This document shows positions 1,697-51,578 of a DNA stretch of 64,000 nt, piece by piece. The notes below the pieces were generated by a model. That model was not told the origin of the DNA. It made no database searches and worked only from the letters and a program-made list of their open reading frames with translations. This stretch comes from Candidatus Sumerlaeia bacterium. GTDB taxonomy: Bacteria; Sumerlaeota; Sumerlaeia; SLMS01. Numbering within the stretch: the stretch's first letter is position 1; each line of letters begins with the position of its first letter. A program made the translations under genes and the position numbers. Location: contig JBBQYG010000001.1 in the NCBI GenBank assembly GCA_038208905.1, positions 7,789-71,788 on the forward strand. Direction: 5' to 3'.

Positions 1697-1750
1697 CGGC
1701 AGGGATGAGGGATGAGGCTTAAGGGATGAACGCCTGCGCCCCCCGTCCCA

Positions 1751-5617: not shown

Positions 5618-6592
5618 TCAGAGCAGGCCCCGCGGACCATAGCGGCGCTTGCGGGCGCTGTAGGTGCTTTCATCCTCCGGCACGGGCCCCGCAGCAGTGG
5701 GTAACGCATCCAACGGTGGGGCGGGACGCGGAGCGCGCGGGGCGCTGGGGCGCAGCGCGTCGCTCGGCGGGCGATCGGATGGATTCTCGAACTCGTCGTG
5801 AAAGGCGTCCGCGGGACGCGGCCCACCGGCCAGGCCCTCGCGCCGCCACAGGTAGATATAGCCGCGGATGCGAAAGCCCTTATAGTCGGAGACTTCCGAC
5901 TGATAGGTGTTGGGCTTCACGAATCCCTGATAGTGGCTGTTGATGACGGCATCATACCCCTCCAGCGTGTTCTTGGCGAAGAGCTTGGGGTACGTGGTCT
6001 CGTGATAGCGCTTGGCAACCGTCGCCACGAAGTCGGCGATCTGAAGCCCGGCGGAATCCGTTTCGCGCTGGACCATGGGCGAGCCGATGATCGGCTGGGC
6101 CTTGCCGTGGGCGCTGAACACGGAGGAAAACTGAATCTCGGAAATCGTCTGCCGCTCGTCGTCGCGCCCGGGTGGAACGATCAACATCCCTTGGCTGCGA
6201 TTTTCCTTCAGGTGCTGGGAGATCGGCTTCATCAAGTAGTGATACGTCAGCGGGAGGAGCCACTTCGGATGAGCGGGCTTGTCGGTGGTGCGCTTGTCCA
6301 CAACGACAAGGAAGACCTTTATCTCGAGAGCGGCCGCGATCTTCTCCAGTCCCTTGCAATAGGCGACGGCCCAAGGGCGCTCCGCATTCTTGGGATGCAA
6401 CAGGTCGTTGGCGTTTACCCGTGTCTTGCCCGGCTGGTAGTTCGCTTTTTGAAAGGACTTTTGCAAACCATTGATTCGCAGCTGGAGAGTCTTCCACTTA
6501 TCCTCCTGAATGGAAACGCCGGCCAAAGTCCAAAAGGTGCCCGCCGTGGATTCGACGGGCTTGCCCGACTGCTGAAGGAAAATGAGATGCAT
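5618..6592 (-). CDS. DUF3800-like protein with a degenerate N-terminal motif and a Pro-rich C-terminal extension
   Basis: 324 aa. The N-terminal MHLIFLQQSG sits where DUF3800 has YIDESG. The C-terminal GLQIADFVATVAKRY resembles the DUF3800 QxADxxA motif. The body (about 5900-6590) is about 55-57% GC against a roughly 68% background. The last ~80 aa are Pro/Ala/Arg-rich low complexity in high-GC DNA. Confidence 0.5.
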   Translation of the reverse strand: MHLIFLQQSGKPVESTAGTFWTLAGVSIQEDKWKTLQLRINGLQKSFQKANYQPGKTRVNANDLLHPKNAERPWAVAYCKGLEKIAAALEIKVFLVVVDKRTTDKPAHPKWLLPLTYHYLMKPISQHLKENRSQGMLIVPPGRDDERQTISEIQFSSVFSAHGKAQPIIGSPMVQRETDSAGLQIADFVATVAKRYHETTYPKLFAKNTLEGYDAVINSHYQGFVKPNTYQSEVSDYKGFRIRGYIYLWRREGLAGGPRPADAFHDEFENPSDRPPSDALRPSAPRAPRPAPPLDALPTAAGPVPEDESTYSARKRRYGPRGLL

Positions 6593-6918
6593 TCTGGGGA
6601 TTCTCTGTTGGGGGTGGGGGTTGGGCCTGGGGGGGGCCGGTCACTTTTCCAGTTGATGTTCTAACTAAGTCTCTCTCGTACTTGCCCGGGCGAACAAACA
6701 GTCTCTATCATGGAATACCCTGAGAGCAAGTGGAACAATCCGGGCGGTGCAATCTGGTACCCTCTTTTTGCTTCAAAAGGCTCGTTCCGAAGGACTTGCA
6801 CGACACTTGCGCCCGATCCGAGGTCTAAAACTCTCTTGGCGGGGTACTCGCGGCCCGAATCACATCGCGGGTTCCACGCCAGAGGCCCTCAAGATTCAAC
6901 AACGATCTCGGTAAATTC

Positions 6919-11340: not shown

Positions 11341-11735
11341 CAGCTCCCCGATCCGTGATGTTGCACGTCAGTGACTTCGTGCAGGTAGTCGTGGAGCCTG
11401 CTCATCAACGCGCGGTACTGCGCCGGGGTCAGATCAACCTCGGTGCCGCCCACCCCCAGGTCGATCATCGCATCCTTGGGGACAGACTTTAGGAATCCCT
11501 CGCGAAACACGACGCGGACGCGGTCGCCCTGCATGGTGATGACGACGTCGCTCTCCTCCGTGGGGCCAAACTTGATCGAGTGATCCTCCGCAAGTTCCAG
11601 CAGGATGCCATCTTTCAATGGATCGAAGGGTGCCGGGGTAGCGGCGGGGGTGGCTGGTGCAGGGGGTTTTTCCTCCCGCGATCCGCAGCCCGCAATGGCG
11701 AGAGCGGCGATAAAGAAAACAGTGCGTGGCGACAT
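11340..11735 (-). CDS. lipoprotein of unknown function, first gene of the ABC-2 permease operon
   Basis: 131 aa. Signal peptide with lipobox (FFIAALAIAGCGS). Pro/Ala/Thr linker. His-containing C-terminal tail (VQHHGSGS). Confidence 0.55.
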   Translation of the reverse strand: MSPRTVFFIAALAIAGCGSREEKPPAPATPAATPAPFDPLKDGILLELAEDHSIKFGPTEESDVVITMQGDRVRVVFREGFLKSVPKDAMIDLGVGGTEVDLTPAQYRALMSRLHDYLHEVTDVQHHGSGS

Positions 11736-11833
11736 GAACGGTTACTTCCCAAGGCGTGGAGTCACCGGGATCCCGGCGCGCCTGTGAGGTGGATTGATTG
11801 GCGGATGCCCGCCACCGGCGCAACCCCAAGCAT

Positions 11834-11880
11834 CGAATTGTAGTATTTGGTCACAAATGTATCATTGGTTACAAATTGGC
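11834..11880. promoter_or_regulatory. AT-rich direct-repeat element in the divergent promoter region; candidate metal-repressor operator
   Basis: The only AT-rich stretch in a roughly 220-bp GC-rich intergenic region. It reads gaattgtagtatttggtcacaaatgtatcattggttacaaattgg, i.e. two 12-mers TTGGTCACAAAT / TTGGTTACAAAT 6 nt apart, about 80 nt upstream of the binding-protein gene ATG. Confidence 0.3.
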
Positions 11881-11958
11881 TTGCCATCCCCCCGCCAATG
11901 GCCCCACACACATCGCGTCGCCGGTGGAACGGTGGCAGACTCCACCGAGGCCCGGTCC

Positions 11959-12903
11959 ATGCACTTTCCTCCCGCCCTTCGCGCACTGATCTGCTTCCTC
12001 GCCCTCGCGGCGTTGCTGGGGGCCGCACCGCTCCGCGCGGAGTATGCGGGTGCCTATCCCTTCAAGGCCGTGGCGACCACCGGAATGGTCGGCGACATGG
12101 TCCGCCGGATCGCGGGCGAGCGCGCCACCGTGACCGACCTGATGTCGGCGGGGATCGACCCCCACCTCTACAAGCCCGGCCGCGGCGACCTGATCGCGCT
12201 GAAGGGCGCGGACATCGTCTTCTACAGCGGACTGAAGCTGGAGGGCCAGATGTCGGAAATTCTCGCCGGCCTCTCCACCAGCAAGCCCAGCATCGCCATC
12301 GCCGAGGCGATCCCATCCGCCAGGCTCCTGGGTGACGACCATCATCACGACCCCCATGTTTGGATGGACGCGGCCCTGTGGCTCCTGGCGGCGGAGAAGG
12401 CCCATGCGGGGCTCGTCACCTTCGACCCGAAGGGGAAGACGATCTACGAGGCGAATATGGAAATCCTGAAGAAGGATATGGCGGCCCTCGATACGCGTGC
12501 CCGCGAAGCCATTGCTTCGATCCCCAAGGAGGCCCGCGTGCTCGTCACGGCACACGACGCCTTCAGCTATTTCGGACGCGCCTATGACATCGAAGTGATG
12601 GGCATCCAGGGCATCTCCACCGAGTCCGAGGCGGGCCTGCAAGACATCAACCGCATGGTGGAACTGCTCGTGTCGCGCAAGATTCCCGCGGTCTTTGTGG
12701 AGAGCAGCGTCAGCGAAAAGAACGTCCGCGCCCTCGTCGAAGGCGCCGCCGCCCGCGGCCACAAAGTCGCCATCGGCGGCTCGCTCTTCTCCGACGCCAT
12801 GGGCAAGGCCGGCACGCCGCAGGGCACGTACATCGGCATGATTGATCACAACGTGGAGACGATTGTGAAAGCGTTGAAGGGGAAGGAAGGGAATGGGGAA
12901 TAG
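11959..12903 (+). CDS. Metal (Zn/Mn) ABC transporter substrate-binding protein, cluster A-I (ZnuA/TroA/MntC family)
   Basis: ATG at 11959 follows an in-frame upstream extension. Signal peptide (ALICFLALAALLGAAPLRA). The DPHLYKP and DPHVWMD motifs are typical of the family. His-rich loop GDDHHHDPH as in ZnuA. Confidence 0.85.
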   Translation: MHFPPALRALICFLALAALLGAAPLRAEYAGAYPFKAVATTGMVGDMVRRIAGERATVTDLMSAGIDPHLYKPGRGDLIALKGADIVFYSGLKLEGQMSEILAGLSTSKPSIAIAEAIPSARLLGDDHHHDPHVWMDAALWLLAAEKAHAGLVTFDPKGKTIYEANMEILKKDMAALDTRAREAIASIPKEARVLVTAHDAFSYFGRAYDIEVMGIQGISTESEAGLQDINRMVELLVSRKIPAVFVESSVSEKNVRALVEGAAARGHKVAIGGSLFSDAMGKAGTPQGTYIGMIDHNVETIVKALKGKEGNGE

Positions 12904-13015
12904 GGAGTGGGGAATGGAGTTCCAACCCGCTCCCCTTCGCACTCCCTGTTAGGGATTCCTCGACATTCTCGCCACATCAGTTCCCTATTCCCCATTCCCC
13001 GTTCCCCATTCCCCC
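12887..13015. repeat. Inverted array of heptamer repeats (GGGGAAT)n ... (ATTCCCC)n spanning the stop of the binding-protein gene and the intergenic region
   Basis: Left arm aagggaatggggaatagggagtggggaatgg (about 12887-12916). Right arm tccctattccccattccccgttccccattcccc (about 12982-13015). They are reverse complements built from GGGGAAT units, about 65 nt apart. Confidence 0.6.
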
Positions 13016-13021
13016 TCTCCC

Positions 13022-13834
13022 ATGCCCCTCCCCGGAATCCGCCCCAGCATCCCCGCCACACCCCGCGACGACCACGCGGAGGATGCGCCGTTGTCTATAC
13101 ACGACCTGACAGTGGCGTATCGGCGGAAGCCGGTGCTGTGGGACGTGGACCTGGACCTGCCGGAGAAGCGCCTGATCGCGCTGGTGGGGCCGAATGGCGC
13201 GGGGAAGAGCACGCTGCTGAAGGCCGCGCTGGGGCTGGTGCCCGCCGTGTCGGGCGATGTGAAGGTCTATGGGCGCGACTACAAGGAGCAGCGCAGGCTG
13301 GTGGCCTATGTGCCGCAGCGGGAGTCTGTGGATTGGGACTTCCCCGTGAACGCACTGGATGTTGTGGCGATGGGCCGCTATCGGCGCATCGGATGGCTGA
13401 GGCCCGTGGGTCGCGCGGACCGCGAGGCGGCGATGGTGGCGCTGGGCAAGGTGGGGATGGCGGACTATGCGCAGCGCCAGATCAGCCAGCTTTCCGGGGG
13501 CCAGCAGCAGCGGGTGTTCCTCGCCCGCGCCCTGGCTCAGGAGGCGCGCCTGTACCTGATGGACGAGCCCTTCGCGGGCGTGGATGCCGCGACGGAGAAG
13601 GCTATCGTGGCGCTGCTCGACGACCTGCGCGAGCAGGGAAACACGGTGCTTGTTGTACATCATGATATACAGACCGTGCCCGCGTATTTCGACTATGTGG
13701 TGATGCTGAACATGCGCGTGGTGGCCCATGGTCCCGTTGAGGACGTGTTCACGGAGGAGAATCTGCGCAAGACATACGGCGGCAAGCTGACGCTGCTGAG
13801 CGCCGCCGCCGAGGCGCTGGCGGGCAGGCGATGA
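13022..13834 (+). CDS. Metal ABC transporter ATP-binding protein (ZnuC/TroB family)
   Basis: Walker A GPNGAGKST. ABC signature LSGGQQQRV. Walker B LYLMDEP. H-loop. 4-nt overlap with the downstream permease gene. Confidence 0.9.
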   Translation: MPLPGIRPSIPATPRDDHAEDAPLSIHDLTVAYRRKPVLWDVDLDLPEKRLIALVGPNGAGKSTLLKAALGLVPAVSGDVKVYGRDYKEQRRLVAYVPQRESVDWDFPVNALDVVAMGRYRRIGWLRPVGRADREAAMVALGKVGMADYAQRQISQLSGGQQQRVFLARALAQEARLYLMDEPFAGVDAATEKAIVALLDDLREQGNTVLVVHHDIQTVPAYFDYVVMLNMRVVAHGPVEDVFTEENLRKTYGGKLTLLSAAAEALAGRR

Positions 13835-15201
13835 TTTCGAGCCTGGCCGCCGCCAGCCACGCGGAAATCGTTCCTCCGATGGAGGCGCTGTGGCGGGTGC
13901 TGTCGCTGCAGGACTACAATACGCGGGTCGTCGTGATTGGCACAACGCTGCTGGGCCTCGCATCGGGGCTGGCGGGGGTGTTCCTGCTGCTGAGGAAGCG
14001 CTCGCTCCTAAGCGACGTGGTCAGTCACTCCGCCCTTCCCGGAATTGGCATCGCGTTCATCGCGATGACGATGATGGGCGGCGGCGGCAAGAACACCCTT
14101 GGCCTGCTGCTTGGCGCCACGGCGACCGCGCTGCTGGGCATTGTCGCGGTCGGCGCCATCCGTCGGTTCACGCGCCTGAAGGACGATGCGGCGCTGGCGA
14201 TCGTGCTGGGGACGTTCTTCTCCGCGGGGATCGCGCTGACCGGCGTGGCGGCGCGCATGCCTGGCGCGGGAGCGTCGGGGCTGGAGAGCTGGATCTACGG
14301 CAAGACCGCGTCGATGCTCTTCTCCGACGCGCTGCTGATCGGAATCACCGGCCTGCTGGTGACGCTGGGGACGGTGCTGCTCTTCAAGGAGCTGGCGCTG
14401 CTATGCTTCGACGAGGACTTCGCCGCGACGCAGGGTTGGCCCGTGGGGCTGCTGGACATGTTGCTGATGGGCGCGACGGTGGCCGTCACGGTGATCGGCT
14501 TGCAGGCGGTGGGGCTGATCCTGGTGGTGGCGCTCCTGATCATACCGCCGGCGGCGGCGCGGCTGTGGACGCATCGGCTGCGCCCGCTTGCCGCGATCTC
14601 GGCGGTGATCGGCGGGCTCGCCTGCCTGGTGGGGAGCGCCCTCAGCGCGCTGATGGAGAATCTCCCCGCGGGCGCGATCATCGTGCTCTCCGCGGCGGCG
14701 CTGTTCTGCGTCAGCCTCGTCTTCGGCACAGAGGGCGGGATGCTCCACCGAGGCCTCGGCGCGTGGACGCTGCGCAAGCGCGTCGGTCGCCAGCATCTGC
14801 TCCGCGCGCTGGCGGAGCTTGCAGAGCAATCCGGCAAGGACGTCGCCTCCTTCTCCACGATCCGTCACCGGCGATCGTGGCACACCGCGACGGTGCGGGG
14901 ACTCCTCGCAAGCGCCATGAAGGATGGGCTGGTGGAGCGCGTGGATGCGCGCCATTGGCGCCTGACGGAATCCGGAGTGGCGGAAGCCCGCCGCGTTGTC
15001 CGCAATCACCGCCTCTGGGAATTGTTCCTGATCACCCACGCCGACATCGCGCCCTCCCACGTGGATCGCGACGCCGACATGATCGAGCACATCCTGGACG
15101 AGCGAATGATCGCGCAGCTTGAGGGATTGATGGCCGGGGAGAATCGCGGCCACGTGCCGCCGAGCCCGCACGCATTGCGTCCGGCGGAGGGCACGGCCTG
15201 A
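13831..15201 (+). CDS. Metal ABC transporter permease (ABC-3/ZnuB-TroC family) fused to a C-terminal DtxR-family metal-dependent repressor domain (YtgC-YtgR-like)
   Basis: 456 aa. The N-terminal roughly 300 aa are a typical ABC-3 permease with 8-9 TM segments. The C-terminal roughly 140 aa read LLRALAELAEQSGKDVASFSTIRHRRSWHTATVRGLLASAMKDGLVERVDARHWRLTESGVAEARRVVRNHRLWELFLITHADIAPSHVDRDADMIEHIL. This matches a DtxR/MntR winged-HTH plus the RRHRLxExFL dimerisation region. Confidence 0.85.
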   Translation: MISSLAAASHAEIVPPMEALWRVLSLQDYNTRVVVIGTTLLGLASGLAGVFLLLRKRSLLSDVVSHSALPGIGIAFIAMTMMGGGGKNTLGLLLGATATALLGIVAVGAIRRFTRLKDDAALAIVLGTFFSAGIALTGVAARMPGAGASGLESWIYGKTASMLFSDALLIGITGLLVTLGTVLLFKELALLCFDEDFAATQGWPVGLLDMLLMGATVAVTVIGLQAVGLILVVALLIIPPAAARLWTHRLRPLAAISAVIGGLACLVGSALSALMENLPAGAIIVLSAAALFCVSLVFGTEGGMLHRGLGAWTLRKRVGRQHLLRALAELAEQSGKDVASFSTIRHRRSWHTATVRGLLASAMKDGLVERVDARHWRLTESGVAEARRVVRNHRLWELFLITHADIAPSHVDRDADMIEHILDERMIAQLEGLMAGENRGHVPPSPHALRPAEGTA

Positions 15202-16505
15202 TGTGGACGACCTTCGACACCGCGATCGTGGCCACGGGCGCCATCGCGGCGATGTCCTGCGCGCTGCCGGGATGCTTCCTTCTGCTGAGGCGCAGCAGCA
15301 TGATGGGCGACGCGATCAGCCACACGGTGCTGCCGGGAATTGCGGCGGCATACCTGCTGACGGGATCGCGGGACAGCCTGCCGATGTTCGTCGGCGCCAT
15401 CGTGGTGGGCGTCCTGACGGCGTTGCTGATTCAGGCGGTGCAGCGCGGCGGCCAGGTGGAGGAAGGCGCCGCGATGGGCGTGGTGTTCACGTCGCTCTTT
15501 GCCCTCGGCCTCGTGATGATCCGTCGCGCGGCGGACCATGTGGACCTCGACCCGAGCTGCGTCCTCTATGGCGCGCTGGAACTGGCGCCGCTGGATACCG
15601 TCTCCGTCGGCGGCTGGGACATTCCCCGCGCAGCAATTTCGAGCGGCGCGCTCCTGCTGATCAACGCGGTCTTCATCGGCATCTTCTACAAGGAGCTGAA
15701 GCTCTGTGCGTTCGACCCGGGCTATGCGCGGACACAGGGCATTCGCGTCGGCGCGCTGAATCTGGCGCTGATGACGCTGATCGCCGCGACCACCGTGGCC
15801 GCGTTCGAGAGCGTCGGCAGCATCCTGGTGATCGCGATGCTCATCGTGCCCGCCGCCACCGCCTACCTGATGACGGATCGGCTGCCGATCATGCTGGTGG
15901 GGAGTCTCGTCTTCGGCGCGCTCTCCGCCGCGCTCGGCCACGGCATGGTGGTGTGGATGGTCGATGGATTGGGACTGCCCGACACCAGCTCCGCGGGGAT
16001 GACCGGCGTGGCGGCGGGGATCCTCTTCGTCGCGATGGCGCTGGGTTCCCCGAAGTATGGTATCCTGATGCGCGCGGCCCGTTCGCTCCAGCTCGCCCTC
16101 GGCATCGCGCGCGACGATGTGCTCGCCTACCTGTACCGCCACGGCGAACTTGATCCACTGGGCACCCGCCCGCGCCCCACGGCAAGCAACCTCCGCGAGG
16201 CCATCCGTGCCCGCGTCGCGGTCAGCGCGGCGATCTGGCAACTGAGGAATCGGCGCCTGCTGGCGGCGGAGGGCGGCGGAATCGCCCTCACCCCCGCTGG
16301 CCGCGACACGGCCCGGGGCCTTGTCCGGTCGCATCGGCTGTGGGAGACGTATCTGGTGGAGAAATTGGGGCTCCGACCCGATCACGTGCATTCCACGGCG
16401 GAAGTTCTGGAGCACATCACCGACCGCACCATGCGCGAAAGCCTGAGCCGCGAGACCGGCGACGCCCCCCGGGACCCCCACCGCTCCAGCATCCCCCCAG
16501 AGTGA
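15201..16505 (+). CDS. Second metal ABC transporter permease fused to a C-terminal DtxR-family domain
   Basis: 434 aa. Permease core followed by ...SNLREAIRARVAVSAAIWQLRNRRLLAAEGGGIALTPAGRDTARGLVRSHRLWETYLVEKLGLRPDHVHSTAEVLEHITD, which is DtxR-like. ATG overlaps the upstream TGA (TGATG). Confidence 0.85.
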   Translation: MWTTFDTAIVATGAIAAMSCALPGCFLLLRRSSMMGDAISHTVLPGIAAAYLLTGSRDSLPMFVGAIVVGVLTALLIQAVQRGGQVEEGAAMGVVFTSLFALGLVMIRRAADHVDLDPSCVLYGALELAPLDTVSVGGWDIPRAAISSGALLLINAVFIGIFYKELKLCAFDPGYARTQGIRVGALNLALMTLIAATTVAAFESVGSILVIAMLIVPAATAYLMTDRLPIMLVGSLVFGALSAALGHGMVVWMVDGLGLPDTSSAGMTGVAAGILFVAMALGSPKYGILMRAARSLQLALGIARDDVLAYLYRHGELDPLGTRPRPTASNLREAIRARVAVSAAIWQLRNRRLLAAEGGGIALTPAGRDTARGLVRSHRLWETYLVEKLGLRPDHVHSTAEVLEHITDRTMRESLSRETGDAPRDPHRSSIPPE

Positions 16506-16587
16506 CCCCCCGCAATCGTTGCTGACACGCGGGCGGGCGTCGGCCTACACTTTCCACCAGATTACCCGCGAAGGAGCCGCGCAGCCC

Positions 16588-16809
16588 ATGTTACTCTTAT
16601 CGGCAGGCCTATTCCCCGGGTTCTGGGAAATGATGATAGTCCTCGCGGTGGTCCTGCTTATCTTCGGGCCGCGCAACCTCCCCAAGCTGGGCGCCATGAT
16701 CGGCAAGACCATTGGCTCCTTCCGCGACGCCGCTACCAAGGGCGTGGACGAGGACGAGGAAACCCCGAAAGCGCCCGCATCAATCGACAGTCGCAAGGAA
16801 CCGAGGTAA
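16588..16809 (+). CDS. tatA: Twin-arginine translocase subunit TatA/E
   Basis: 73 aa from the ATG at 16588, with AAGGAG 12 nt upstream. Sequence MLLLSAGLFPGFWEMMIVLAVVLLIFGPRNLPKLGAMIGKTIGSFRDA carries the canonical TatA TM, hinge and amphipathic-helix signature. Confidence 0.85.
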   Translation: MLLLSAGLFPGFWEMMIVLAVVLLIFGPRNLPKLGAMIGKTIGSFRDAATKGVDEDEETPKAPASIDSRKEPR

Positions 16810-16835
16810 GAAGGAAGTAAGGGACTGCAGGGGCC

Positions 16836-16885
16836 GAGGGAACGAAAAGCTGGAGTTCCCCTTTCCCTGCCTCCCCCTGCTTTTT
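16836..16885. terminator. Candidate bidirectional terminator between convergent tatA and pilT
   Basis: Hairpin gggaac gaaaagctgga gttccc followed by a T/C-rich run (ctttccctgcctccccctgctttttcc). Confidence 0.35.
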
Positions 16886-16902
16886 CCTGCCTCTCCCCCC
16901 CC

Positions 16903-17997
16903 CTAAACCACCGGATCTTCCGCCTCGTTCGTGTGGGCCATCATCTTGACGCGAAGTTCGTCGGGATAGGTGGCGCGCTCGAGGGCGACATCTCCGTTGA
17001 CCTGACCGGCCTTGTAGAGGCGGAACAGGAAATCGTCCATGGTCATCATGCCCATCTTGGCGGAGATCTGGATCTGGGAGAAGAGGCGGTTGGTCTTGTG
17101 CTCGCGGATGAGCGAGGCGACGGCGGGGACGTTGTGGAGGATCTCGTAGGCGGCGCGGCGGCCCTTGCCGGACGCGTGGGGGACGAGCGTTTGGGCGATG
17201 ATCGTCTTGAGCGCCACGGAGAGCACCGCGCGCACCTGTTCCTGTTGGTTGGCTGGGAAGGCGTCGATCATGCGGTCAACGGTGGAGGATGCGTCGATGG
17301 TGTGCAGCGTTCCGAACACCAAGTGGCCTGTTTCCGCGGCGTGGAGGCCGGCTTCCATCGTTTCCAAATCTCGCATTTCACCCACCAGAATCACGTCGGG
17401 GTCCTGACGCAGCGCGCCGCGGAGCGCGTAGGAGAAGCTGGGCGTGTCCACGTGGATTTCGCGATGGGTGACGATGGCCTTCTTGTGGGGGTGGATGTAC
17501 TCGATCGGGTCCTCGATGGTGATGATGTGGACGTAGCGGTTCACGTTGATGTAGTCGATCAGCGTCGCCAGCGTGGTCGTCTTGCCGGAGCCGGTGGGGC
17601 CGGTGATAATGCAGAGACCGCGGTGGGCGTGGAGCACGTTGATGATCGATTCCTTGGGAAGGCCAAGGACCTCGAACGGCAGCAGCCGCGAGGGAATGAG
17701 TCGCATGACGATGCTGATGTTGCCGCGCGCGCGGAACACGGCCACGCGGAAACGGGCCTGGTCGGAGTAGGAGTAGGCGAAGTCGGCGGAGCCGTGCTCC
17801 TGAAGCATCTGCTGATAGCGCGGCGGCGTGATTTCGCGCATCAGGCGCTCGGAATCGTCGGGCGTCAGGATGTCGGGATCGACCACGTCCAAGGTGCCGC
17901 CAAGCCGCATGACGGCGGCCTTGCCGACGGAGATGTGAAGGTCGGAGCCATCGCGCTCGACGATGATCTTCAGCATCTCGTTGATGTCCATTGCCAT
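16903..17997 (-). CDS. pilT: Type IV pilus retraction ATPase PilT
   Basis: Start taken at MAMDINEML... (ATG 17995-17997). Walker A GPTGSGKTTT. Asp box. Walker B. His box (ETGHLVFGTLHT). The long ORF-track N-terminal extension is non-coding-like. Confidence 0.9.
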   Translation of the reverse strand: MAMDINEMLKIIVERDGSDLHISVGKAAVMRLGGTLDVVDPDILTPDDSERLMREITPPRYQQMLQEHGSADFAYSYSDQARFRVAVFRARGNISIVMRLIPSRLLPFEVLGLPKESIINVLHAHRGLCIITGPTGSGKTTTLATLIDYINVNRYVHIITIEDPIEYIHPHKKAIVTHREIHVDTPSFSYALRGALRQDPDVILVGEMRDLETMEAGLHAAETGHLVFGTLHTIDASSTVDRMIDAFPANQQEQVRAVLSVALKTIIAQTLVPHASGKGRRAAYEILHNVPAVASLIREHKTNRLFSQIQISAKMGMMTMDDFLFRLYKAGQVNGDVALERATYPDELRVKMMAHTNEAEDPVV

Positions 17998-27341: not shown

Positions 27342-27444
27342 CGCGATCTTGTCGTCCGTGCCTGAATGCGGGGCGTCCCCGGGTGGCCATCGAAGCGATG
27401 GCATCCCGGGGACGCAAGCGAACCGTGGAGCTGGTCGAAACCGA

Positions 27445-28953: not shown

Positions 28954-29097
28954 GAAGCTACTTCTCCTGTGGTTGGTTGCCGAGTGGTTGGTGGTTTGCT
29001 TGCAAAGTCATAAAGGGGGAGGGGGGCCCGGCTGGGCAGGCGGCGCCTCGAAAAGAGCGAGGCGCGCGGAGGCGGGGTGGTCTATCTCACAGAGTAA

Positions 29098-29739
29098 TCA
29101 AGATTCGGGCCCAAGATCGGCCCCCGTCGAAATACCAGCGGGGAATCCGCCGGGAAACAGATGGGCCAGCAGCACGGCCACCTTGGCCGCCGTCACCCGT
29201 CGCGAGCCCGAATTGTCGATCAGATGATCTGCCCGCGTGATCTTGTCGGCCTGACTCATCTGGGCCGAGAGGCGCCGCTGGGCCTCCTCCCGGTCGATCC
29301 CGCGATAGGACGCGAGGCGGCGAAAGCGCTCCTCGTCGTCGATCGTAACCACCAACGTCTGGTCGCATTCGGCGTCGAGCCCGGTCTCGAACAAGAGCGG
29401 GACATCGAGCACGACGAGCGGGTCGGCGCGGTAGGACTGGATCAATTCGAGTTCTCGTTCCCGGACAGTGGGGTGAATGAGGCTTTCGAGGAGTAGTCGC
29501 TTATCGGGGTCGGCAAAGACGATCTTTGCCAGTGCATGCCTGTCGAGCGAGCCATCAGGTAGCAGAACGCCGTCGCCAAACTGGCGGGCAATCGCGGAAA
29601 GAACGGGTTTTCCTGGCTGGACGATGTCGCGGGCGATGGTGTCGGCACAGACCACCTTGGCGCCGCACCGTGACATCAGCGACGATACAAACGTCTTCCC
29701 ACTGCCTAGCGAGCCCGTCAAGCCGAGAATCAAGGGCAT
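29098..29739 (-). CDS. coaE: Dephospho-CoA kinase
   Basis: Start MPLILGLTGSLGSGKT (P-loop). CoaE fold motifs. Located downstream of polA, which is the common polA-coaE linkage. Confidence 0.85.
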   Translation of the reverse strand: MPLILGLTGSLGSGKTFVSSLMSRCGAKVVCADTIARDIVQPGKPVLSAIARQFGDGVLLPDGSLDRHALAKIVFADPDKRLLLESLIHPTVRERELELIQSYRADPLVVLDVPLLFETGLDAECDQTLVVTIDDEERFRRLASYRGIDREEAQRRLSAQMSQADKITRADHLIDNSGSRRVTAAKVAVLLAHLFPGGFPAGISTGADLGPES

Positions 29740-29747
29740 GGGACTGC

Positions 29748-29919
29748 TCCAAGGGAAGGGACGAGCGGGAAAGACGGAAAAAGCGGGAAAGGGGGAGAAA
29801 AGATGAAAGGTCGATGCCATCCGACCGAGTTCGGTATCGACACGTCGTTCATAATCCCCGCCCTGCCTTTCGTCGCCGTTCCCGTATTTCCCGCCGTCCC
29901 CGCCTTTCCCGCCGTTCCC
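29748..29919. repeat. Inverted arrays of GGGAAA / TTTCCC unit repeats flanking a ~55-nt spacer between coaE and polA
   Basis: Left arm gggaagggacgagcgggaaagacggaaaaagcgggaaaggggg (29748-29800). Right arm ccgcctttcgtcgccgttcccgtatttcccgccgtccccgcctttcccgccgttcccc (29860-29919). The arms are reverse-complementary in composition (purine-rich GGGAAA units versus TTTCCC units). Confidence 0.55.
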
Positions 29920-32607
29920 CTAGCACCTAGCCCAATTCTCCCCCACCGACACATCCACCCGGATCGGGACATCAAGGGGGAGGGCGTTGGCCATCTCGTC
30001 ACGGACGAGGATGGTGAGGCGGTCCACCTCGGGGAGGGGGGTGTCGAAGATGAGTTCGTCGTGGACTTGCAGGATCATGCGGGAGGCAAGCCCCTCGGCC
30101 TTGATTCGGGGGGCGATGCGCAACATGGCGGCCTTGATCATGTCGGCGCTGGTCCCTTGGATCGGCGTGTTGACGGCGATGCGTTCGGCAAAGTTCCGCT
30201 GGTTGGCGTTGCGCGCGTTGATGTCTGAGACAAAGCGGCGGCGACCCAGCAGCGTGGTCACGTAGCCATCGCGGCGCGCGGCCTCCTTGGTTTCCTCGAT
30301 GAAGCGGGCCACGCCGGAATAGATGCGGAAGTAATCGTCGATGAAGCGCTTGGCCTCGGCGCGGCTGATTCCCAGGTCCTTGGAAAGCCGGAAGTCCGAC
30401 ATGCCGTAGATGATCCCGAAGTTGATGGCCTTGGCCTGGCCGCGCATCGCGGAGCTGACCTCTGCCTCGGGGATTCCGAAGACCTTGGAGGCCGTGAGCG
30501 TATGCACGTCGCCGCCGGTGCGGAAGGCCTCGCGCAGGGCCTCGTCACCGCTCAGATGCGCGAGGATGCGGAGCTCGATCTGGGAATAGTCGGCGGAAAC
30601 GAGAACCCATCCGTCGGCGCGCGGGAGAAAGCCCTCGCGGATGCGGCGCCCCGCCTCCGTGCGGATGGGGATGTTCTGCAAGTTTGGATTCGAGCTGGAG
30701 AGCCGGCCCGTGGCGGCGATGGTCTGGTTGAAGCTCGTGTGGAGGCGACCCGTCTGGGGATGCACCATGCCGGGTAGCGGTTCGAGGTACGTGTTGCGCA
30801 GCTTTTCCACCTGGCGAAATTCCAGCAACTTGCGCGGGAGTGGATGCTTGTCCTCCAGCTCCTCGAGCACGGAAACGTCGGTGGAGTAGGTGCCGGACTT
30901 CCCCTTTTTGCCGGTGGGGAGTTTCAGCTCGTCGAAGAGGATCGCGCCCACCTGCTTGGGGGAGTTGATGTTAAAGAAGCGCCCGGCAATGCGGTGGATT
31001 TCCTCCGCGTGGCGGGCGAGTTCCCTTTCCGCCTCCTTGGAGAGGCGCTGGAAGTGGTCGCGGTCGATGCGGACGCCTTCCATTTCCATCTCGGCGAGGA
31101 TCGATTCGAGGGGGAGTTCGACCTCTCGATAGAGCCGGTCCATCCCTGCCTCGGCCACCTTGGGCGCAAGGTGGCGGCATAGCTGAAGCGTGGCGTCGGC
31201 ATCCTGGCAGGCATATCGGCCCGAGTCCTCGATGGTGACACCGGCCATCGTGACCATGTCGTCTCCGCCGCCGATGAGTTCGGAGATCTCGGTCATCTTG
31301 ATGCCAAGAAGCGAGACGGCCATTTCCTTGAGGCGCAGGGAATTCGACCGGTCGGGCGCGAGCAGGAATCCCGCGATCATCGAGTCGCCCGCGATGACGC
31401 ACGGCGGGAATCCGGCCCGGCCCAGAATCTTGCAGTCGTAGTTCCAATTGTGCGCGACCCAGCGGATCGCGGGGTCGGAAAGGAGGGGACCGAGCACCGC
31501 GCGCACGTCATCGAGCGCAAGCTGTGGCTCAGAACCGCCGTGGCCGACGGGGAGATACACGGCCTGATTCGTGGCCCACGAAATCGAGATGCCGACGAGG
31601 CTCGCCACGAGCGCGTCGAGGTCGGTGGTCTCGGTGTCGATGGAGGCCTCGCCCGCGGAGCGGATCGCGCTCGCGGCATCCTCCAGTTCCGCGCGCGTGC
31701 GCAGGACGCGGTAGTCAACGGTGCGCTCTTCGACGGTGGCGCCGCCGAGATCGGCGAGGAGCGATTGGAAGTTCATCTCGCGATAGAACTCGCGCAGCTC
31801 TGGCGTCGGCACGTAGGACCAGAGGAACGCATCCCAGTCGAAGGACGCGATGCAGTCTGTATCGAGCGTTGCCAGCTTTTCCGACAGGCGAACCGCTTCG
31901 GGCTGGGTGCGGAGGAACTCCGCCACCTTTGCGGGCTTCACCGCGTCGGCGTTGGCGATGATGGCCTCGATGGTGCCGTACTCGGCGAGGAGCTTGGCGG
32001 CGCCCTTCGCTCCGCAGCCTGGCACGCCGGGAATGTTATCCGCCGTGTCGCCGACGATGCCGAGGTAGGCGGCGATTTGGTTGGGGCGAACGCCCATCTT
32101 CTCAAAGACGCCCTGCTCGTCCAGCAGTTCGGTCTTCTGAAGATGCTCTCGCAGGACCTTGATCCCCGGGCGGACGATCTGGAGAAGGTCCTTGTCGGAG
32201 GAGCAGACGAGGGCCTCTCCCCCGCTCTCCGCCGCGCGGAGCGCCAGTGCGGCCAGCGCGTCGTCGGCCTCGAAGCCATCGAGTGTGACCATCGGCACGC
32301 GCAGGATGCCGAGCAGTTCCTTCACGCGATGGTACTGAATCTTGAGGTCGTCGGGCGTGGGGGGGCGGTGGGCCTTGTACTCGGCAAAGAGGTTGTCGCG
32401 AAAGGACTTGCCGGGGGCGTCGAACACGACGGCGACGTGCTGGAGGCCATGCTGCCGCTGGAGGCGGAAGAAGGTGGAGATGAACCCGTAGATGGCCGAC
32501 GTTGGCTCCCCGCGCGCGTTGGTCAGCTGCTCGCGGATCGCGTGGTAGGCCTTGTAGAGGTTCGAGTGACCATCGATGAGGACGAGGGTCTTTCCGGAGT
32601 TGCTCAT
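29920..32607 (-). CDS. polA: DNA polymerase I
   Basis: 895 aa. N-terminal 5'-3' exonuclease (LVLIDGHSNLYKAYHA). 3'-5' exonuclease region. C-terminal family-A polymerase motifs (DYSQIELRILAHLS, RRQAKAINFGIIYG, QVHDELI). Confidence 0.95.
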   Translation of the reverse strand: MSNSGKTLVLIDGHSNLYKAYHAIREQLTNARGEPTSAIYGFISTFFRLQRQHGLQHVAVVFDAPGKSFRDNLFAEYKAHRPPTPDDLKIQYHRVKELLGILRVPMVTLDGFEADDALAALALRAAESGGEALVCSSDKDLLQIVRPGIKVLREHLQKTELLDEQGVFEKMGVRPNQIAAYLGIVGDTADNIPGVPGCGAKGAAKLLAEYGTIEAIIANADAVKPAKVAEFLRTQPEAVRLSEKLATLDTDCIASFDWDAFLWSYVPTPELREFYREMNFQSLLADLGGATVEERTVDYRVLRTRAELEDAASAIRSAGEASIDTETTDLDALVASLVGISISWATNQAVYLPVGHGGSEPQLALDDVRAVLGPLLSDPAIRWVAHNWNYDCKILGRAGFPPCVIAGDSMIAGFLLAPDRSNSLRLKEMAVSLLGIKMTEISELIGGGDDMVTMAGVTIEDSGRYACQDADATLQLCRHLAPKVAEAGMDRLYREVELPLESILAEMEMEGVRIDRDHFQRLSKEAERELARHAEEIHRIAGRFFNINSPKQVGAILFDELKLPTGKKGKSGTYSTDVSVLEELEDKHPLPRKLLEFRQVEKLRNTYLEPLPGMVHPQTGRLHTSFNQTIAATGRLSSSNPNLQNIPIRTEAGRRIREGFLPRADGWVLVSADYSQIELRILAHLSGDEALREAFRTGGDVHTLTASKVFGIPEAEVSSAMRGQAKAINFGIIYGMSDFRLSKDLGISRAEAKRFIDDYFRIYSGVARFIEETKEAARRDGYVTTLLGRRRFVSDINARNANQRNFAERIAVNTPIQGTSADMIKAAMLRIAPRIKAEGLASRMILQVHDELIFDTPLPEVDRLTILVRDEMANALPLDVPIRVDVSVGENWARC

Positions 32608-42050: not shown

Positions 42051-42131
42051 GGCGGGAGCATGGACCCGGGGCCCGCGAAGGGGAAGCGGAATCGCGGCGC
42101 CCGGGCGGCGCGGGGGATGCGGGAAGTGCGC

Positions 42132-42240
42132 CTACCACGAATGGACACTGATAGGCACGAATTCTCCCCGCCTGAACCCGATAGAGACCATGCCGCGTGC
42201 TCGCTTCCATTTGCGTTGATTTGTGTCCATTCGTGGTAAC
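42132..42240. repeat. Copy A of a ~110-bp intergenic element bounded by 14-bp inverted repeats (ccacgaatggacac ... gtgtccattcgtgg)
   Basis: Inverted repeats at 42135-42148 and 42223-42236. Internal cacgaat motif. About 75% identical to copy B at 56874-56986, in the same orientation and the same divergent-intergenic context. Confidence 0.7.
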
Positions 42241-42335
42241 CTCCTCCCTGGCGGCATGGAGGCTTGACGGTCAGGCTCGCGGCTCCTTCACTGGGGGCCT
42301 GAAGCAAACCCGCCCCCTGCGAGAACCGACGCGCC

Positions 42336-51116: not shown

Positions 51117-51178
51117 GCTTGACCGGCGACGCCCCGCCGCCGATACTCTCCCCCATCACCCCGGGGAGCGCGCCGACC

Positions 51179-51526
51179 ATGGACCACGACCACAAGAATC
51201 ACCCCCACCAGCACGGCCCAGGCTGTGGACACCCCGCCGTCGTCCACGGCGACCACGTGGACTACCTCCACAACGGCCACCTGCACCACGTGGACGGCAC
51301 CAAGGTGGAGGAACACGCCCTGGACATCACCCCCCGCAACCCCTCCGACTGCGAAGCCACCAGCCTCCACACCCCGCACCACACCCACGGCCCCACCTGC
51401 GGCCACGAAGCCGTCCCCCACGGCGACCACACCGACTACGTCGTCAACGGACGCCTCCACCACCCCCACGACGGACACTGCGACGATCATGGTCCGGTGG
51501 TGGTGTTGAAGAATATGGCGCCGTGA
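51179..51526 (+). CDS. Small His/Cys-rich putative metal-binding protein with an internal tandem duplication
   Basis: Two ~28-aa repeats: HGPGCGHPAVVHGDHVDYLHNGHLHHVDG and HGPTCGHEAVPHGDHTDYVVNGRLHHPHDG, plus a C-terminal HCDDHGP. An alternative upstream start lies at 51119. Confidence 0.5.
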   Translation: MDHDHKNHPHQHGPGCGHPAVVHGDHVDYLHNGHLHHVDGTKVEEHALDITPRNPSDCEATSLHTPHHTHGPTCGHEAVPHGDHTDYVVNGRLHHPHDGHCDDHGPVVVLKNMAP

Positions 51527-51565
51527 GGGGCGCTGCACTTTTCGCTTCATAGTCGAAAGCGCCCG
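51527..51565. terminator. Bidirectional terminator-like hairpin between convergent genes
   Basis: gggcgc tgcacttttcgcttcatagtcgaaa gcgccc with an inner cttttcg/cgaaag pairing. Flanked by T-runs on both strands. Confidence 0.4.
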
Positions 51566-51578
51566 GATTTCGAAATTC

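What the first reader, a model, noticed from the sequence alone, without database searches (positions are those of the whole stretch)
12887..13015. Inverted heptamer-repeat arrays (GGGGAAT)n/(ATTCCCC)n between the binding-protein and ATPase genes
The 3' end of the binding-protein gene (encoding ...GKEGNGE*) consists of tandem GGGGAAT-like units. About 65 nt downstream is the reverse-complementary array ccctattccccattccccgttccccattcccc, which ends just before the ATPase start codon.

On the mRNA this predicts a ~30-bp imperfect stem with a 65-nt loop inside the operon. That could act as an attenuator or an RNA-stability element, giving differential expression of the binding protein versus the membrane components. 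It could instead be a protein-binding repeat array.

It belongs to a class of GGGAA-unit inverted structures that recur in this window (see 29748-29919 and 16836-16885).
Basis: seen in the sequence. Interest (0 to 1): 0.5.

Follow-up and report, generated by a model that had tools for sequence, protein, structure and literature searches.

The report
Inverted G-rich heptamer repeat hairpin
Two facing arrays of the 7-base unit GGGGAAT sit between the binding-protein and ATPase genes of a metal transporter operon and can fold into a long hairpin; this is a new example, in a little-studied bacterial phylum, of a repeat class already described in Xanthomonas and Nostoc whose function is still unknown.

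Summary
A G-rich heptamer array (12879-12917) holds the last codons and the TAG stop of a ZnuA/TroA-type binding-protein gene. Its reverse complement (12981-13020) ends 1-6 nt before the ATPase ATG at 13022. The arms are 27 nt at 89% complementarity. The RNA fold is -71.4 kcal/mol against -53.5 for shuffles (z = -4.6).

It is not a new kind of element. It meets every feature tested here of the G-rich heptameric repeats of Rehm et al. 2015 (PMC4692102) and resembles cyanobacterial STRR hairpins. The new points are the host, a Candidatus Sumerlaeota relative, and the unit GGGGAAT.

Relatives with the same operon have overlapping stop and start codons (ATGA or GTGA), so the element is lineage-specific. 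Near-identical metagenome strains differ by whole 7-nt units in either arm, yet every haplotype keeps the stem. The loop is single-copy. There is no U-tract, no Rfam family and no sense-strand bias in folding.

The most likely effect, which is inferred, is an intercistronic mRNA hairpin. It would shield the binding-protein cistron and make ATPase translation depend on upstream ribosomes. A neutral slippage-built palindrome remains a serious rival. Of the two companion sites, 29748-29919 is similar and 16836-16885 is not significant.

The parts
11959..12903 (+). ZnuA/TroA-type metal-binding protein gene (314 aa). Its last 7-8 codons (GKEGNGE) and the TAG stop are encoded by the G-rich heptamer array.
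   Evidence: Pfam ZnuA at E = 8e-75, with the domain ending at ...KALKG. The metagenome gene call has the same start. Homologues end either at ...KALK/KALE or with a different conserved tail, APEKGMQGKLS.
12879..12917 (+). Left, G-rich arm: GGGGAAG GAAGGGAAT GGGGAAT AGGGAGT GGGGAAT GG. It has 4-5 G-tracts and contains the stop codon UAG at 12901-12903.
   Evidence: It matches a G4 motif on the + strand. Loci L003 and L007 lack one 7-nt unit here.
12918..12980 (+). Enclosed unique sequence (the loop) with small internal hairpins, for example UCCCU-GUU-AGGGA at 12943-12955.
   Evidence: It has no second copy in the window at up to 3 mismatches. A 20-mer from it matched only the two already known contigs in the JGI metagenome collection. 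Only 2-3 SNPs occur among 7 strain variants.
12981..13020 (+). Right, C-rich arm: TTCCCTA TTCCCCA TTCCCCG TTCCCCA TTCCCCC TCTCC. It is the reverse complement of the left arm and carries no Shine-Dalgarno motif.
   Evidence: It matches G4 motifs on the - strand. Loci L002 and L005 lack one 7-nt unit here.
13022..13834 (+). ABC transporter ATPase gene. In the minimum-free-energy fold its AUG pairs with 12871-12874 at the base of the stem.
   Evidence: Pfam ABC_tran. The N-terminal extension DDHxxExPLSIHD is shared with the 79%-identical L129 homologue, which supports ATG 13022 as the start. Base-pair probabilities are 0.72-0.84, and the start codon is 0.14-0.20 unpaired.
13831..16505 (+). Two ABC-3 permease genes (13831-15201 and 15201-16505). 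Each is fused to a DtxR-type C-terminal domain, and each start overlaps the preceding stop codon.
29748..29919 (-). Second element of the same architecture, between the polA stop (29922-29920) and coaE (SD GGAG at 29750-29747, ATG at 29739). On the - strand, a G-rich array of 8-9-nt units starts at the stop codon and a C-rich array ends at the SD.
   Evidence: (pair I2).

Best explanation
The element is a convergent (inverted) pair of G-rich heptameric simple-sequence repeats. It belongs to the class described in Xanthomonas (GGGAATC) and Nostoc (GGGGA(C/T)T), to which the cyanobacterial STRR hairpins are related. Here the unit is GGGGAAT and the host is a relative of Candidatus Sumerlaeota.

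Shown: it is a lineage-specific addition to a junction that in relatives is a 4-nt stop/start overlap. Its arms grow and shrink by whole 7-nt units, as expected from replication slippage. Because both arms are periodic, any register still pairs, so the long stem survives these changes.

Inferred: the operon must be transcribed through the element, since no terminator or internal promoter is detectable. The mRNA would then carry an interrupted hairpin of about 35-40 bp, with the binding-protein stop codon in the 5' arm and the ATPase start codon at the base of the 3' arm. The most likely consequences are two. First, the hairpin would act as a barrier to 3'->5' decay, or as a pause or processing site, which favours the binding-protein cistron. 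Second, it would occlude the ATPase initiation region, which has no Shine-Dalgarno motif. ATPase translation would then be low and depend on ribosomes finishing the binding-protein gene and melting the 5' arm.

The net effect would be more binding protein than ATPase and permeases, with translational coupling retained despite the 118-nt spacer.
For: Identity:
- Array anatomy and significance.
- Every class feature from PMC4692102 that could be tested is met. These are a heptamer with a G3-4 tract, a position between aligned ORFs, the G-rich strand overlapping the stop codon, the G-rich strand on the non-coding side within 50 bp of the next ORF, a convergent pair, 4-5 units, and length variation between strains.
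- The same GGGGAAT/ATTCCCC pairs occur in Rhodanobacter, Dokdonella, Gemmatimonadetes, Nostoc and others. In 17 of 17 pairs closer than 400 nt, the G-rich arm comes first.
- A Sumerlaeota relative (L131) has three arrays of GGGGTAT-type units at gene boundaries. Two of them are inverted pairs (ybaB-recR, and a DUF507 gene and the next gene), with z = -2.5 and -4.9.

Lineage-specific insertion: relatives with the same four-gene operon overlap the stop and start codons (ATGA in L129, GTGA in L128).

Slippage: whole-unit indels occur in either arm, and each allele is seen in two independent samples. There are about 7 variant events in 136 nt, against 0.77% variable sites in the flanks. All haplotypes keep a fold of -64 to -78 kcal/mol.

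Mechanism:
- The AUG is paired (p = 0.72-0.84) and the stop codon lies mid-stem.
- Among about 16 gene starts, the ATPase start codon is the least accessible (0.13), and its -20..+10 region ranks second lowest (0.23).
- Blocking 12883-12916, as a terminating ribosome would, raises the unpaired fraction of the right arm from 0.17 to 0.74, and of the -20..+10 region from 0.31 to 0.66.
- There is no SD upstream of the ATG.
- No terminator-like or promoter-like site lies at the junction.

Literature: STRR hairpins between hupS and hupL have been proposed to raise transcript stability or to confer translational coupling (PMC2670836). In Xanthomonas RNA-seq, transcripts start or stop more often at G4-capable repeats than at control repeats (PMC4692102).
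Against: - No expression data exist for this organism, so every functional step is inferred.
- The antisense strand folds as well as or better than the sense strand in 6 of 9 elements tested, including this one (-76.0 against -69.2 kcal/mol). There is therefore no sign of selection on the sense RNA specifically.
- The element is absent from relatives and hypervariable within the population. That pattern fits tolerated simple-sequence DNA as well as it fits a tuned regulator.
- About half the genes in this lineage lack an SD anyway, so the missing SD is not special.
- With a ribosome placed on the stop codon, the AUG itself stays paired to downstream sequence in the 400-nt model.
- An element that fills the whole spacer between stop and start is expected for anything that expands inside a tight junction. 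That placement is not independent evidence of function.
- Rehm et al. found no regulatory role for the class.
Confidence: 0.5

Rival explanations
1. It is a neutral by-product. Slippage-prone heptamer arrays arose and expanded in the spacer, or were laid down by some DNA-level process. They are tolerated because they do not abolish expression of the downstream genes. The hairpin is a consequence of the sequence, not a selected function.
For: - The element is absent from the same junction in relatives.
- It is about 7-fold more variable than the flanks, with whole-unit indels in either arm that are not compensated in the other arm.
- Folding shows no sense-strand asymmetry.
- The class has no demonstrated role after a dedicated study (PMC4692102).
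- The units differ between elements in one genome: GGGGAAT here, 8-9-mers at 29748-29919 and AGGGATG at 1701-1729.
Against: - Neutral slippage does not explain why two arrays of the same unit face each other.
- It does not explain why the G-rich arm came first in 17 of 17 close pairs across phyla.
- It does not explain the preference for about four units, or the avoidance of divergent intergenic regions, reported for the class.
- All five haplotypes keep a very stable stem.
Confidence: 0.3
2. The active structures are G-quadruplexes, with an i-motif on the complementary strand, rather than the hairpin. The G-rich array would form a G4 on the non-template DNA or in the mRNA just after the stop codon. 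The second array would form a G4 on the template strand ahead of the ATPase gene. Together they would pause or block RNA polymerase or ribosomes.
For: - Both arms satisfy G3+N1-7 x4: 12879-12905 on the + strand, and 12983-13007 and 13011-13033 on the - strand.
- Oligonucleotides of the related Xanthomonas and Nostoc repeats form K+-dependent G4s in vitro.
- The class prefers four units, which is the minimum for a G4.
- Transcripts start or stop more often at G4-capable repeats (PMC4692102).
Against: - G4 motifs are not enriched in this window: 15 observed against about 19 in shuffles.
- In the mRNA, a fully complementary C-rich arm 65 nt away should outcompete an intramolecular G4, given the -71 kcal/mol stem.
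- G4 formation was not tested for the GGGGAAT unit.
Confidence: 0.1
3. It is a small mobile element, of the MITE or REP/BIME kind, with heptamer terminal inverted repeats, moved by a transposase or a RAYT-like enzyme.
For: - It has a palindromic architecture and an intergenic position next to a stop codon.
- The fixed polarity of the arms (G-rich first) is what a defined terminal repeat would give.
- It is absent from the orthologous site in relatives.
Against: - The loop is single-copy in the window and in the metagenome collection that holds this population.
- Loops of elements in other genomes are unrelated.
- The units differ between elements of one genome.
- No target-site duplication is evident in the sequence.
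- Rehm et al. found no association with insertion sequences.
Confidence: 0.04
4. It is a protein-binding repeat array, for example an operator for the DtxR-like domains fused to the two permeases, or it is a Rho-independent attenuator.
For: - The units are repeated and the operon encodes DtxR-type domains.
- A small palindrome in the loop (TCCCT-GTT-AGGGA) is invariant among the strains.
Against: - The unit number varies among near-identical strains.
- The same arrays occur next to unrelated genes and in unrelated phyla.
- A more conventional operator candidate, TTGGTNACAAAT x2 in an AT-rich stretch, lies upstream of the operon.
- No U-tract or terminator-like site is present.
Confidence: 0.04

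Closest known systems
G-rich heptameric SSRs of Xanthomonas (GGGAATC) and Nostoc PCC 7120 (GGGGA(C/T)T), including their convergent inverted pairs (Rehm et al. 2015, PLoS One, PMC4692102)
   Same: - The unit is a heptamer with a G3-4 tract followed by an A/T-rich tail.
- The arrays are intergenic and lie between co-directional ORFs.
- The G-rich strand on the coding side overlaps, or lies within 50 bp of, the stop codon.
- The G-rich strand on the non-coding side lies within 50 bp upstream of the next ORF.
- Most arrays are paired convergently, so a stem-loop is possible.
- Arrays have about four units.
- Length varies strongly between close relatives.
- There is no link to insertion sequences.
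   Different: - The unit is GGGGAAT, which is neither of the two published consensus units.
- The host is a Sumerlaeota relative, a phylum that the paper did not examine.
- Genome-wide abundance could not be measured here.
- This copy splits a junction that is a 4-nt stop/start overlap in relatives, and it provides both the stop codon and the upstream context of the next start codon.
Cyanobacterial STRR (short tandemly repeated repetitive) heptamer sequences that form intercistronic hairpins, for example between hupS and hupL (as summarised in PMC2670836)
   Same: Both consist of 7-bp tandem units arranged so that a hairpin forms between two genes of one operon. The proposed roles, transcript stability or translational coupling, are the ones inferred here, and the function is likewise unproven.
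   Different: The host is not a cyanobacterium. It has a Rho factor whose closest named relatives are Sumerlaeota, and its DNA is 65% G+C. From memory, the unit of STRR1 is CCCCA(A/G)T, so it is similar but not identical.
REP/BIME palindromes in E. coli operons such as malE-malF (from memory: they stabilise the upstream binding-protein mRNA segment)
   Same: Both are stable palindromes placed between the periplasmic binding-protein gene and the downstream transporter genes of an ABC importer operon. The expected outcome is an excess of binding protein.
   Different: REPs share a conserved sequence of about 35 nt, present in hundreds of copies and linked to RAYT transposases. In this element the arms are simple-sequence arrays, the loop is unique and no shared consensus was found.
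Translational coupling through long-range mRNA structure (from memory: rpmI-rplT in E. coli and the coat/replicase genes of RNA phages)
   Same: The start region of the downstream cistron is base-paired to the 3' end of the upstream ORF, so upstream translation should open it.
   Different: No experiment has been done here. The pairing partner is a hypervariable repeat rather than a conserved sequence.

Membership tests
G-rich heptameric SSR class (Rehm et al. 2015) | A tandem array of at least 2 heptamer units, each with a G3-4 tract followed by an A/T-containing tail | tested here: met
   TRF reports period 7 with 4.1 and 4.9 copies. The units are GGGGAAT, AGGGAGT and GGGGAAC. The unit differs from both published consensus units, GGGAATC and GGGGA(C/T)T.
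G-rich heptameric SSR class (Rehm et al. 2015) | Intergenic position between aligned ORFs, with the G-rich strand on the coding strand within 50 bp of, or overlapping, the stop codon | tested here: met
   The stop codon TAG at 12901-12903 lies inside the + strand G-rich array, and both flanking genes are on the + strand.
G-rich heptameric SSR class (Rehm et al. 2015) | Upstream of an ORF, the G-rich strand is on the non-coding strand within 50 bp of the start codon | tested here: met
   The C-rich array on the coding strand ends 1-6 nt before the ATG at 13022.
G-rich heptameric SSR class (Rehm et al. 2015) | Two arrays in convergent orientation close to each other, forming an inverted repeat | tested here: met
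   The arms are 27 nt at 89% complementarity and 71 nt apart. The G-rich arm came first in 17 of 17 close pairs found in other genomes.
G-rich heptameric SSR class (Rehm et al. 2015) | About four units per array, with length variation between close relatives | tested here: met
   Each arm has 4-5 units. Alleles with one unit fewer exist for each arm, and each allele appears in two independent samples.
G-rich heptameric SSR class (Rehm et al. 2015) | High genome-wide abundance (about 90-190 arrays per genome), spread over the chromosome | not testable with these tools
   Only 64 kb of this genome is available. It holds this pair, the 8-9-mer pair at 29748-29919 and a solitary AGGGATG array at 1701-1729. 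A relative has three arrays in 21.6 kb.
G-rich heptameric SSR class (Rehm et al. 2015) | G-quadruplex formation by the repeat in vitro | not testable with these tools
Cyanobacterial STRR | Occurs in filamentous or heterocystous cyanobacteria | tested here: not met
   The window encodes Rho, whose closest named relatives are Candidatus Sumerlaeota at 74-79% identity. G+C is about 65%.
Cyanobacterial STRR | 7-bp tandem units that form a hairpin between genes of an operon | tested here: met
   the description of STRR hairpins is in PMC2670836.
REP/BIME or MITE | Many dispersed copies that share a conserved sequence, with terminal repeats plus a target-site duplication in the case of MITEs | tested here: not met
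   The loop 27-mer is unique in the window at up to 3 mismatches. A 20-mer from the loop matched only this locus in the metagenome collection. No flanking duplication is seen.
Intrinsic (Rho-independent) terminator or attenuator | A G+C-rich hairpin followed directly by a run of U | tested here: not met
   No terminator-like site lies at the junction in the scan of 11500-17200. The 3' arm is followed by CUCUCCCAUGCCCC.
Any curated RNA family (Rfam 15) | A score at or above the family's gathering threshold | tested here: not met
   There were no hits at gathering thresholds in the whole window. The permissive search gave only sub-threshold microRNA-precursor (generic hairpin) matches, on both strands.

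The most novel reading that the evidence does not exclude
These stop-to-start heptamer hairpins may be a cross-phylum device for long-distance translational coupling. The periodic stem would hold the upstream stop codon and the downstream start codon, which has no Shine-Dalgarno motif, side by side. A terminating ribosome would then be handed across more than 100 nt, a bacterial analogue of ribosome shunting. Whole-unit slippage would tune the efficiency. The invariable polarity, with the G-rich arm first, might instead record a dedicated DNA-level process that installs the arrays at gene boundaries. One such process could be G-strand addition at both 3' ends of a break, which would leave a structure like two fused telomeres.
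Probability: 0.07. Interest if true: 0.8.

Novelty: new member of a known kind. Interest (0 to 1): 0.33.

Why it matters
The class of G-rich heptamer repeats, often found as inverted pairs, was described a decade ago and still has no known function. This copy gives a clean natural comparison. In relatives the two genes overlap by 4 nt, whereas here 118 nt of repeat hairpin separates them. The element supplies both the stop codon of one gene and the start context of the next. Natural alleles differing by one unit in either arm already exist.

That makes the stability, coupling and G4 hypotheses directly testable with a few reporter constructs. The result also extends the class to a candidate phylum (Sumerlaeota) and to further lineages such as Gemmatimonadetes and non-Xanthomonas Xanthomonadales. 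In 17 of 17 close pairs found in the genome scan, the G-rich arm came first.

For annotation, it warns that the short tails and heads of ORFs next to such arrays are repeat-derived. Here these are GKEGNGE at the binding-protein C-terminus and, by inference from the C-rich coding sequence, the first residues of the ATPase N-terminus (MPLPG...).

Tried and rejected
- Rfam at gathering thresholds on the whole window, and a permissive search on 12700-13200, gave no family. Only generic hairpin matches appeared, on both strands.
- The promoter and terminator scan found nothing at the junction.
- A search for dispersed copies of the loop found none, either in the window at up to 3 mismatches or in the JGI metagenome collection with an exact 20-mer. 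MITE and REP are therefore rejected.
- The genome-contig scan with GGGGAATGGGGAAT was meant to recover the source genome and its other arrays. It did reveal how widely such pairs are distributed.
- An exact look-up of the NCBI copy of the binding protein found nothing on record.
- The alternative ATPase start at TTG 13091, with a GGAGGA motif 7 nt upstream, was considered. It was set aside because the N-terminal DDHxxExP segment is conserved in the L129 homologue.
- The test for sense-strand-specific wobble or energy asymmetry was negative.
- The test for G4-motif enrichment in the window was negative.
- The third companion site, 16836-16885, folds no better than shuffles.
- Literature searches for the exact repeat strings gave nothing. 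Searching for the 7-mers as whole words led to PMC4692102.
Full report
**1. What is in the sequence**

A ZnuA/TroA-type substrate-binding protein gene (11959-12903; Pfam ZnuA, E = 8e-75) ends in ...AAG GGG AAG GAA GGG AAT GGG GAA TAG. Its last residues, GKEGNGE, and its stop codon are therefore encoded by a G-rich heptamer array at 12879-12917.

The reverse-complementary C-rich array at 12981-13015 continues as CTCTCCC and ends at the ATG of the ABC ATPase gene (13022-13834). Two ABC-3 permease genes follow, each with a start codon overlapping the preceding stop.

The evidence that this is more than chance:
- TRF calls both arrays at period 7, with 4.1 and 4.9 copies.
- The arms are 27 nt at 89% complementarity, and a register shifted by 7 nt gives 18/18 matches.
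- The double-unit pattern occurs 12 times in the window against 2.4 expected, and 7 of the 12 lie here.
- The RNA fold is -71.4 kcal/mol against -53.5 +/- 3.9 for shuffles (z = -4.64). The single-stranded DNA fold gives z = -4.16.
- In a 400-nt context the two arms still pair with each other.

**2. Host and evolutionary context**

The window also encodes polA, coaE and rho. The closest named relatives of its Rho protein are Candidatus Sumerlaeota/Sumerlaeia, at 74-79% identity. The nearest homologue of the binding protein is only about 60% identical, so no close species is available for comparison.

Two more distant relatives carry the same four-gene operon, including the permease-DtxR fusions. 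These are L129, whose ATPase is 79% identical, and L128. In both, the binding-protein stop and the ATPase start overlap by 4 nt (ATGA and GTGA). In L129 a GGAGGA motif sits inside the binding-protein 3' end.

The 118-nt stop-to-start spacer in the window is therefore a lineage-specific addition to a junction that is normally tightly coupled. The ATPase N-terminal segment DDHxxExPLSIHD is shared with L129, which supports ATG 13022 as the true start. The sequence upstream of that ATG consists only of C and T, with no Shine-Dalgarno motif. About half the genes in this lineage lack one as well.

**3. Variation in the population**

Seven metagenome contigs from seven samples carry this locus at 99.0-99.6% identity. 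Within the 136-nt element there are about seven variant events:
- three transitions, at 12907, 12918 and 13001;
- two SNPs in the loop;
- loss of one 7-nt unit from the left arm, in L003 and L007;
- loss of one 7-nt unit from the right arm, in L002 and L005.

The flanks show only 0.77% variable sites. Each unit-loss allele appears in two independent samples, so these are real alleles and not assembly noise. The losses are not compensated in the opposite arm. Even so, every haplotype folds at -64 to -78 kcal/mol, because periodic arms can pair in any register.

The loop is nearly invariant and single-copy. It has no second copy in the window. A 20-mer from it matched only this locus in the JGI metagenome collection.

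**4. What kind of thing it is**

A scan of species-representative genomes for GGGGAATGGGGAAT returned more than 119 loci. Many are from Nostocales and Oscillatoriales. Others are from Xanthomonadales (Rhodanobacter, Dokdonella, Xanthomonas, Pseudoxanthomonas), Gemmatimonadetes, Chloroflexi and other groups.

In 17 of these loci, arrays on the two strands lie within 400 nt of each other. In all 17 the G-rich array comes first. This polarity looks the same from either strand. The high-G+C examples sit tightly between gene ends.

The literature search found the class already described. Rehm et al. 2015 (PMC4692102) report the following for G-rich heptamer repeats, GGGAATC in Xanthomonas and GGGGA(C/T)T in Nostoc:
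- They are intergenic and lie mostly between aligned ORFs.
- On the coding strand they lie within 50 bp of, or overlap, the stop codon.
- On the non-coding strand they lie within 50 bp upstream of the next ORF.
- There are 70-75 convergent inverted pairs per Xanthomonas genome.
- Arrays prefer four units and vary in length between species.
- They form G4 structures in vitro.
- Transcripts start or stop at them more often than at control repeats.
- No function has been established.

Cyanobacterial STRR heptamers form similar hairpins between hupS and hupL. Suggested roles there are transcript stability or translational coupling, and the function is unknown (PMC2670836).

The element in the window meets every class feature that could be tested. 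The exceptions are genome-wide abundance and G4 biophysics, which these tools cannot address. It is therefore a new member of a known kind, with a slightly different unit (GGGGAAT), in a phylum not examined before.

Sumerlaeota relative L131 adds support. It has three arrays of GGGGTAT-type units at gene boundaries, and two of them form inverted pairs:
- one between ybaB and recR, whose C-rich arm abuts the ATG;
- one between a DUF507 gene and the next gene, z = -4.9.

**5. The companion sites in the window**

Site 29748-29919 has the same architecture on the - strand. The polA stop codon overlaps the first G of a G-rich array of 8-9-nt units. The complementary C-rich array ends at the GGAG Shine-Dalgarno motif of coaE. 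The arms are only 76% complementary, and z = -2.56. Relatives have an extra 880-910-residue gene at that position.

Site 16836-16885 lies between the convergent tatA and a T2SSE-family ATPase gene. It does not fold better than shuffles (z = -0.90). I do not count it as an element of the class.

A solitary AGGGATG array lies directly after a stop codon at 1697-1729.

**6. How it probably works**

The shown facts are these:
- In the minimum-free-energy fold, the stop codon UAG lies in the middle of the 5' arm.
- The AUG at 13022-13024 pairs with 12872-12874 at the base of the stem, with pair probabilities of 0.72-0.84. Its unpaired probability is 0.14-0.20.
- Among about 16 gene starts folded in the same way, this start codon is the least accessible (0.13), and its -20..+10 region ranks second lowest (0.23). 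The lowest belongs to the second permease, whose start overlaps the preceding stop codon and is presumably coupled.
- Forbidding pairing of 12883-12916, to mimic a terminating ribosome, raises the unpaired fraction of the right arm from 0.17 to 0.74. For the -20..+10 region it rises from 0.31 to 0.66. The AUG itself stays paired to downstream sequence in that model.
- No terminator-like or promoter-like site lies at the junction. The ATPase and permease genes must therefore be read through from upstream.

From these facts I infer an intercistronic mRNA hairpin with two effects. It would protect or delimit the binding-protein segment of the transcript. It would also keep ATPase translation low and dependent on upstream ribosomes. 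This would preserve the coupling that relatives achieve by codon overlap, and it would favour an excess of binding protein.

**7. Why confidence is limited**

- The antisense strand folds as well as or better than the sense strand, for this element and for most others tested. Nothing points to selection on the sense RNA specifically.
- The element is absent from relatives and hypervariable in the population.
- An element that fills the whole spacer is expected for anything that expands inside a tight junction.
- The only dedicated study of the class found no regulatory role.

A neutral slippage-built palindrome is therefore a serious rival, which I rate at about 0.3. It does not explain the invariable polarity or the pairing of the arrays.

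The G4 reading remains possible. Both arms match the motif, but G4 motifs are not enriched in the window (15 against about 19 in shuffles). In the mRNA a fully complementary arm should outcompete a quadruplex.

The other rivals fail defining tests. These are a MITE or REP element, an intrinsic terminator and a protein-binding array. A more conventional operator candidate lies upstream of the operon.

**8. Verdict**

The element is a new member of a known but functionally unexplained class. Interest is modest. Its main value is as a clean natural test case, and as evidence that the class and its fixed polarity extend well beyond Xanthomonas and cyanobacteria.

Noticed in passing
window 13831-15201 and 15201-16505: Both ABC-3 permeases carry a C-terminal DtxR-type metal-binding and dimerisation domain (Fe_dep_repr_C). 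In the first permease, weak winged-helix hints (MarR_2, FeoC) precede that domain. From memory, this resembles the Chlamydia YtgC-YtgR permease-repressor fusion. The relative L129 has the same architecture.
   Followed up: partly
window 11850-11885: An AT-rich stretch upstream of the binding-protein gene holds two direct copies of TTGGT(C/T)ACAAAT (TTGGTCACAAAT and TTGGTTACAAAT). This is a plausible operator for a metal-dependent repressor. It overlaps a promoter-like site on the - strand at 11865-11837.
   Followed up: no
window 42133-42148 / 42223-42238: A perfect 16-nt inverted repeat, TACCACGAATGGACAC ... GTGTCCATTCGTGGTA, with 74 nt between the arms, lies in the intergenic region between divergent genes (39924-42131 on the - strand and 42303-44429 on the + strand).
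   Followed up: no
window 27373-27415: A tight hairpin with 20-nt arms at 90% complementarity and a 3-nt loop (GCGTCCCCGGGTGGCCATCG / CGATGGCATCCCGGGGACGC) lies just downstream of the rho stop codon (27445) on the - strand.
   Followed up: no
window 29007-29920; L130 6591-9326; L131 6642-9278: Relatives have an 880-910-residue CarboxypepD_reg-repeat gene between polA and coaE. The window has no such gene there. It has only the second inverted array and a spacer.
   Followed up: partly
window 1697-1729: A solitary G-rich heptamer array, AGGGATG in about 4 copies, starts 4 nt after a TAA stop codon between convergent ORFs. No complementary array follows it.
   Followed up: partly
window 35646-35880: Tandem repeats of 42-45 nt, about 5 copies at 68-70% identity, lie inside the 1434-residue secretin/TPR gene on the - strand. 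On that strand they read GCCAAGAAGGCGGC..., which would encode an Ala/Lys-rich repeat region.
   Followed up: no
window 51888-52004: Tandem repeats of 21 nt (2.6-3.3 copies, 77-86% identity) lie in a stretch (51116-52746) where my GC3-based ORF filter found no gene.
   Followed up: no
window 6593-6640 (- strand leader), and gene starts generally: Many start codons in this lineage are preceded directly by CCC or another C-rich stretch (for example GCCC ATG and CCCC ATG). About half the genes lack a Shine-Dalgarno motif. The gene at 5618-6592 (- strand) has a C-rich leader whose complement matches a G4 motif at 6610-6636.
   Followed up: partly
L131 3615-3638, 14757-14875 and 19665-19809: A Sumerlaeota relative (Rho 77% identical) carries three arrays of GGGGTAT-type heptamers at gene boundaries. 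Two are inverted pairs, one between ybaB and recR and one between a DUF507 gene and the next gene.
   Followed up: yes
L066 1424-1508; L107 358-442; L045 2629-2721; L033 7859-7923: In Rhodanobacter, Dokdonella, a Gemmatimonadetes MAG and one other MAG (L107), GGGGAAT/ATTCCCC inverted pairs begin 1-10 nt after the stop codon of a long ORF. In three of the four (all except L033) they fill the whole gap to the next ORF end, both between convergent ORFs and between co-directional ORFs.
   Followed up: partly
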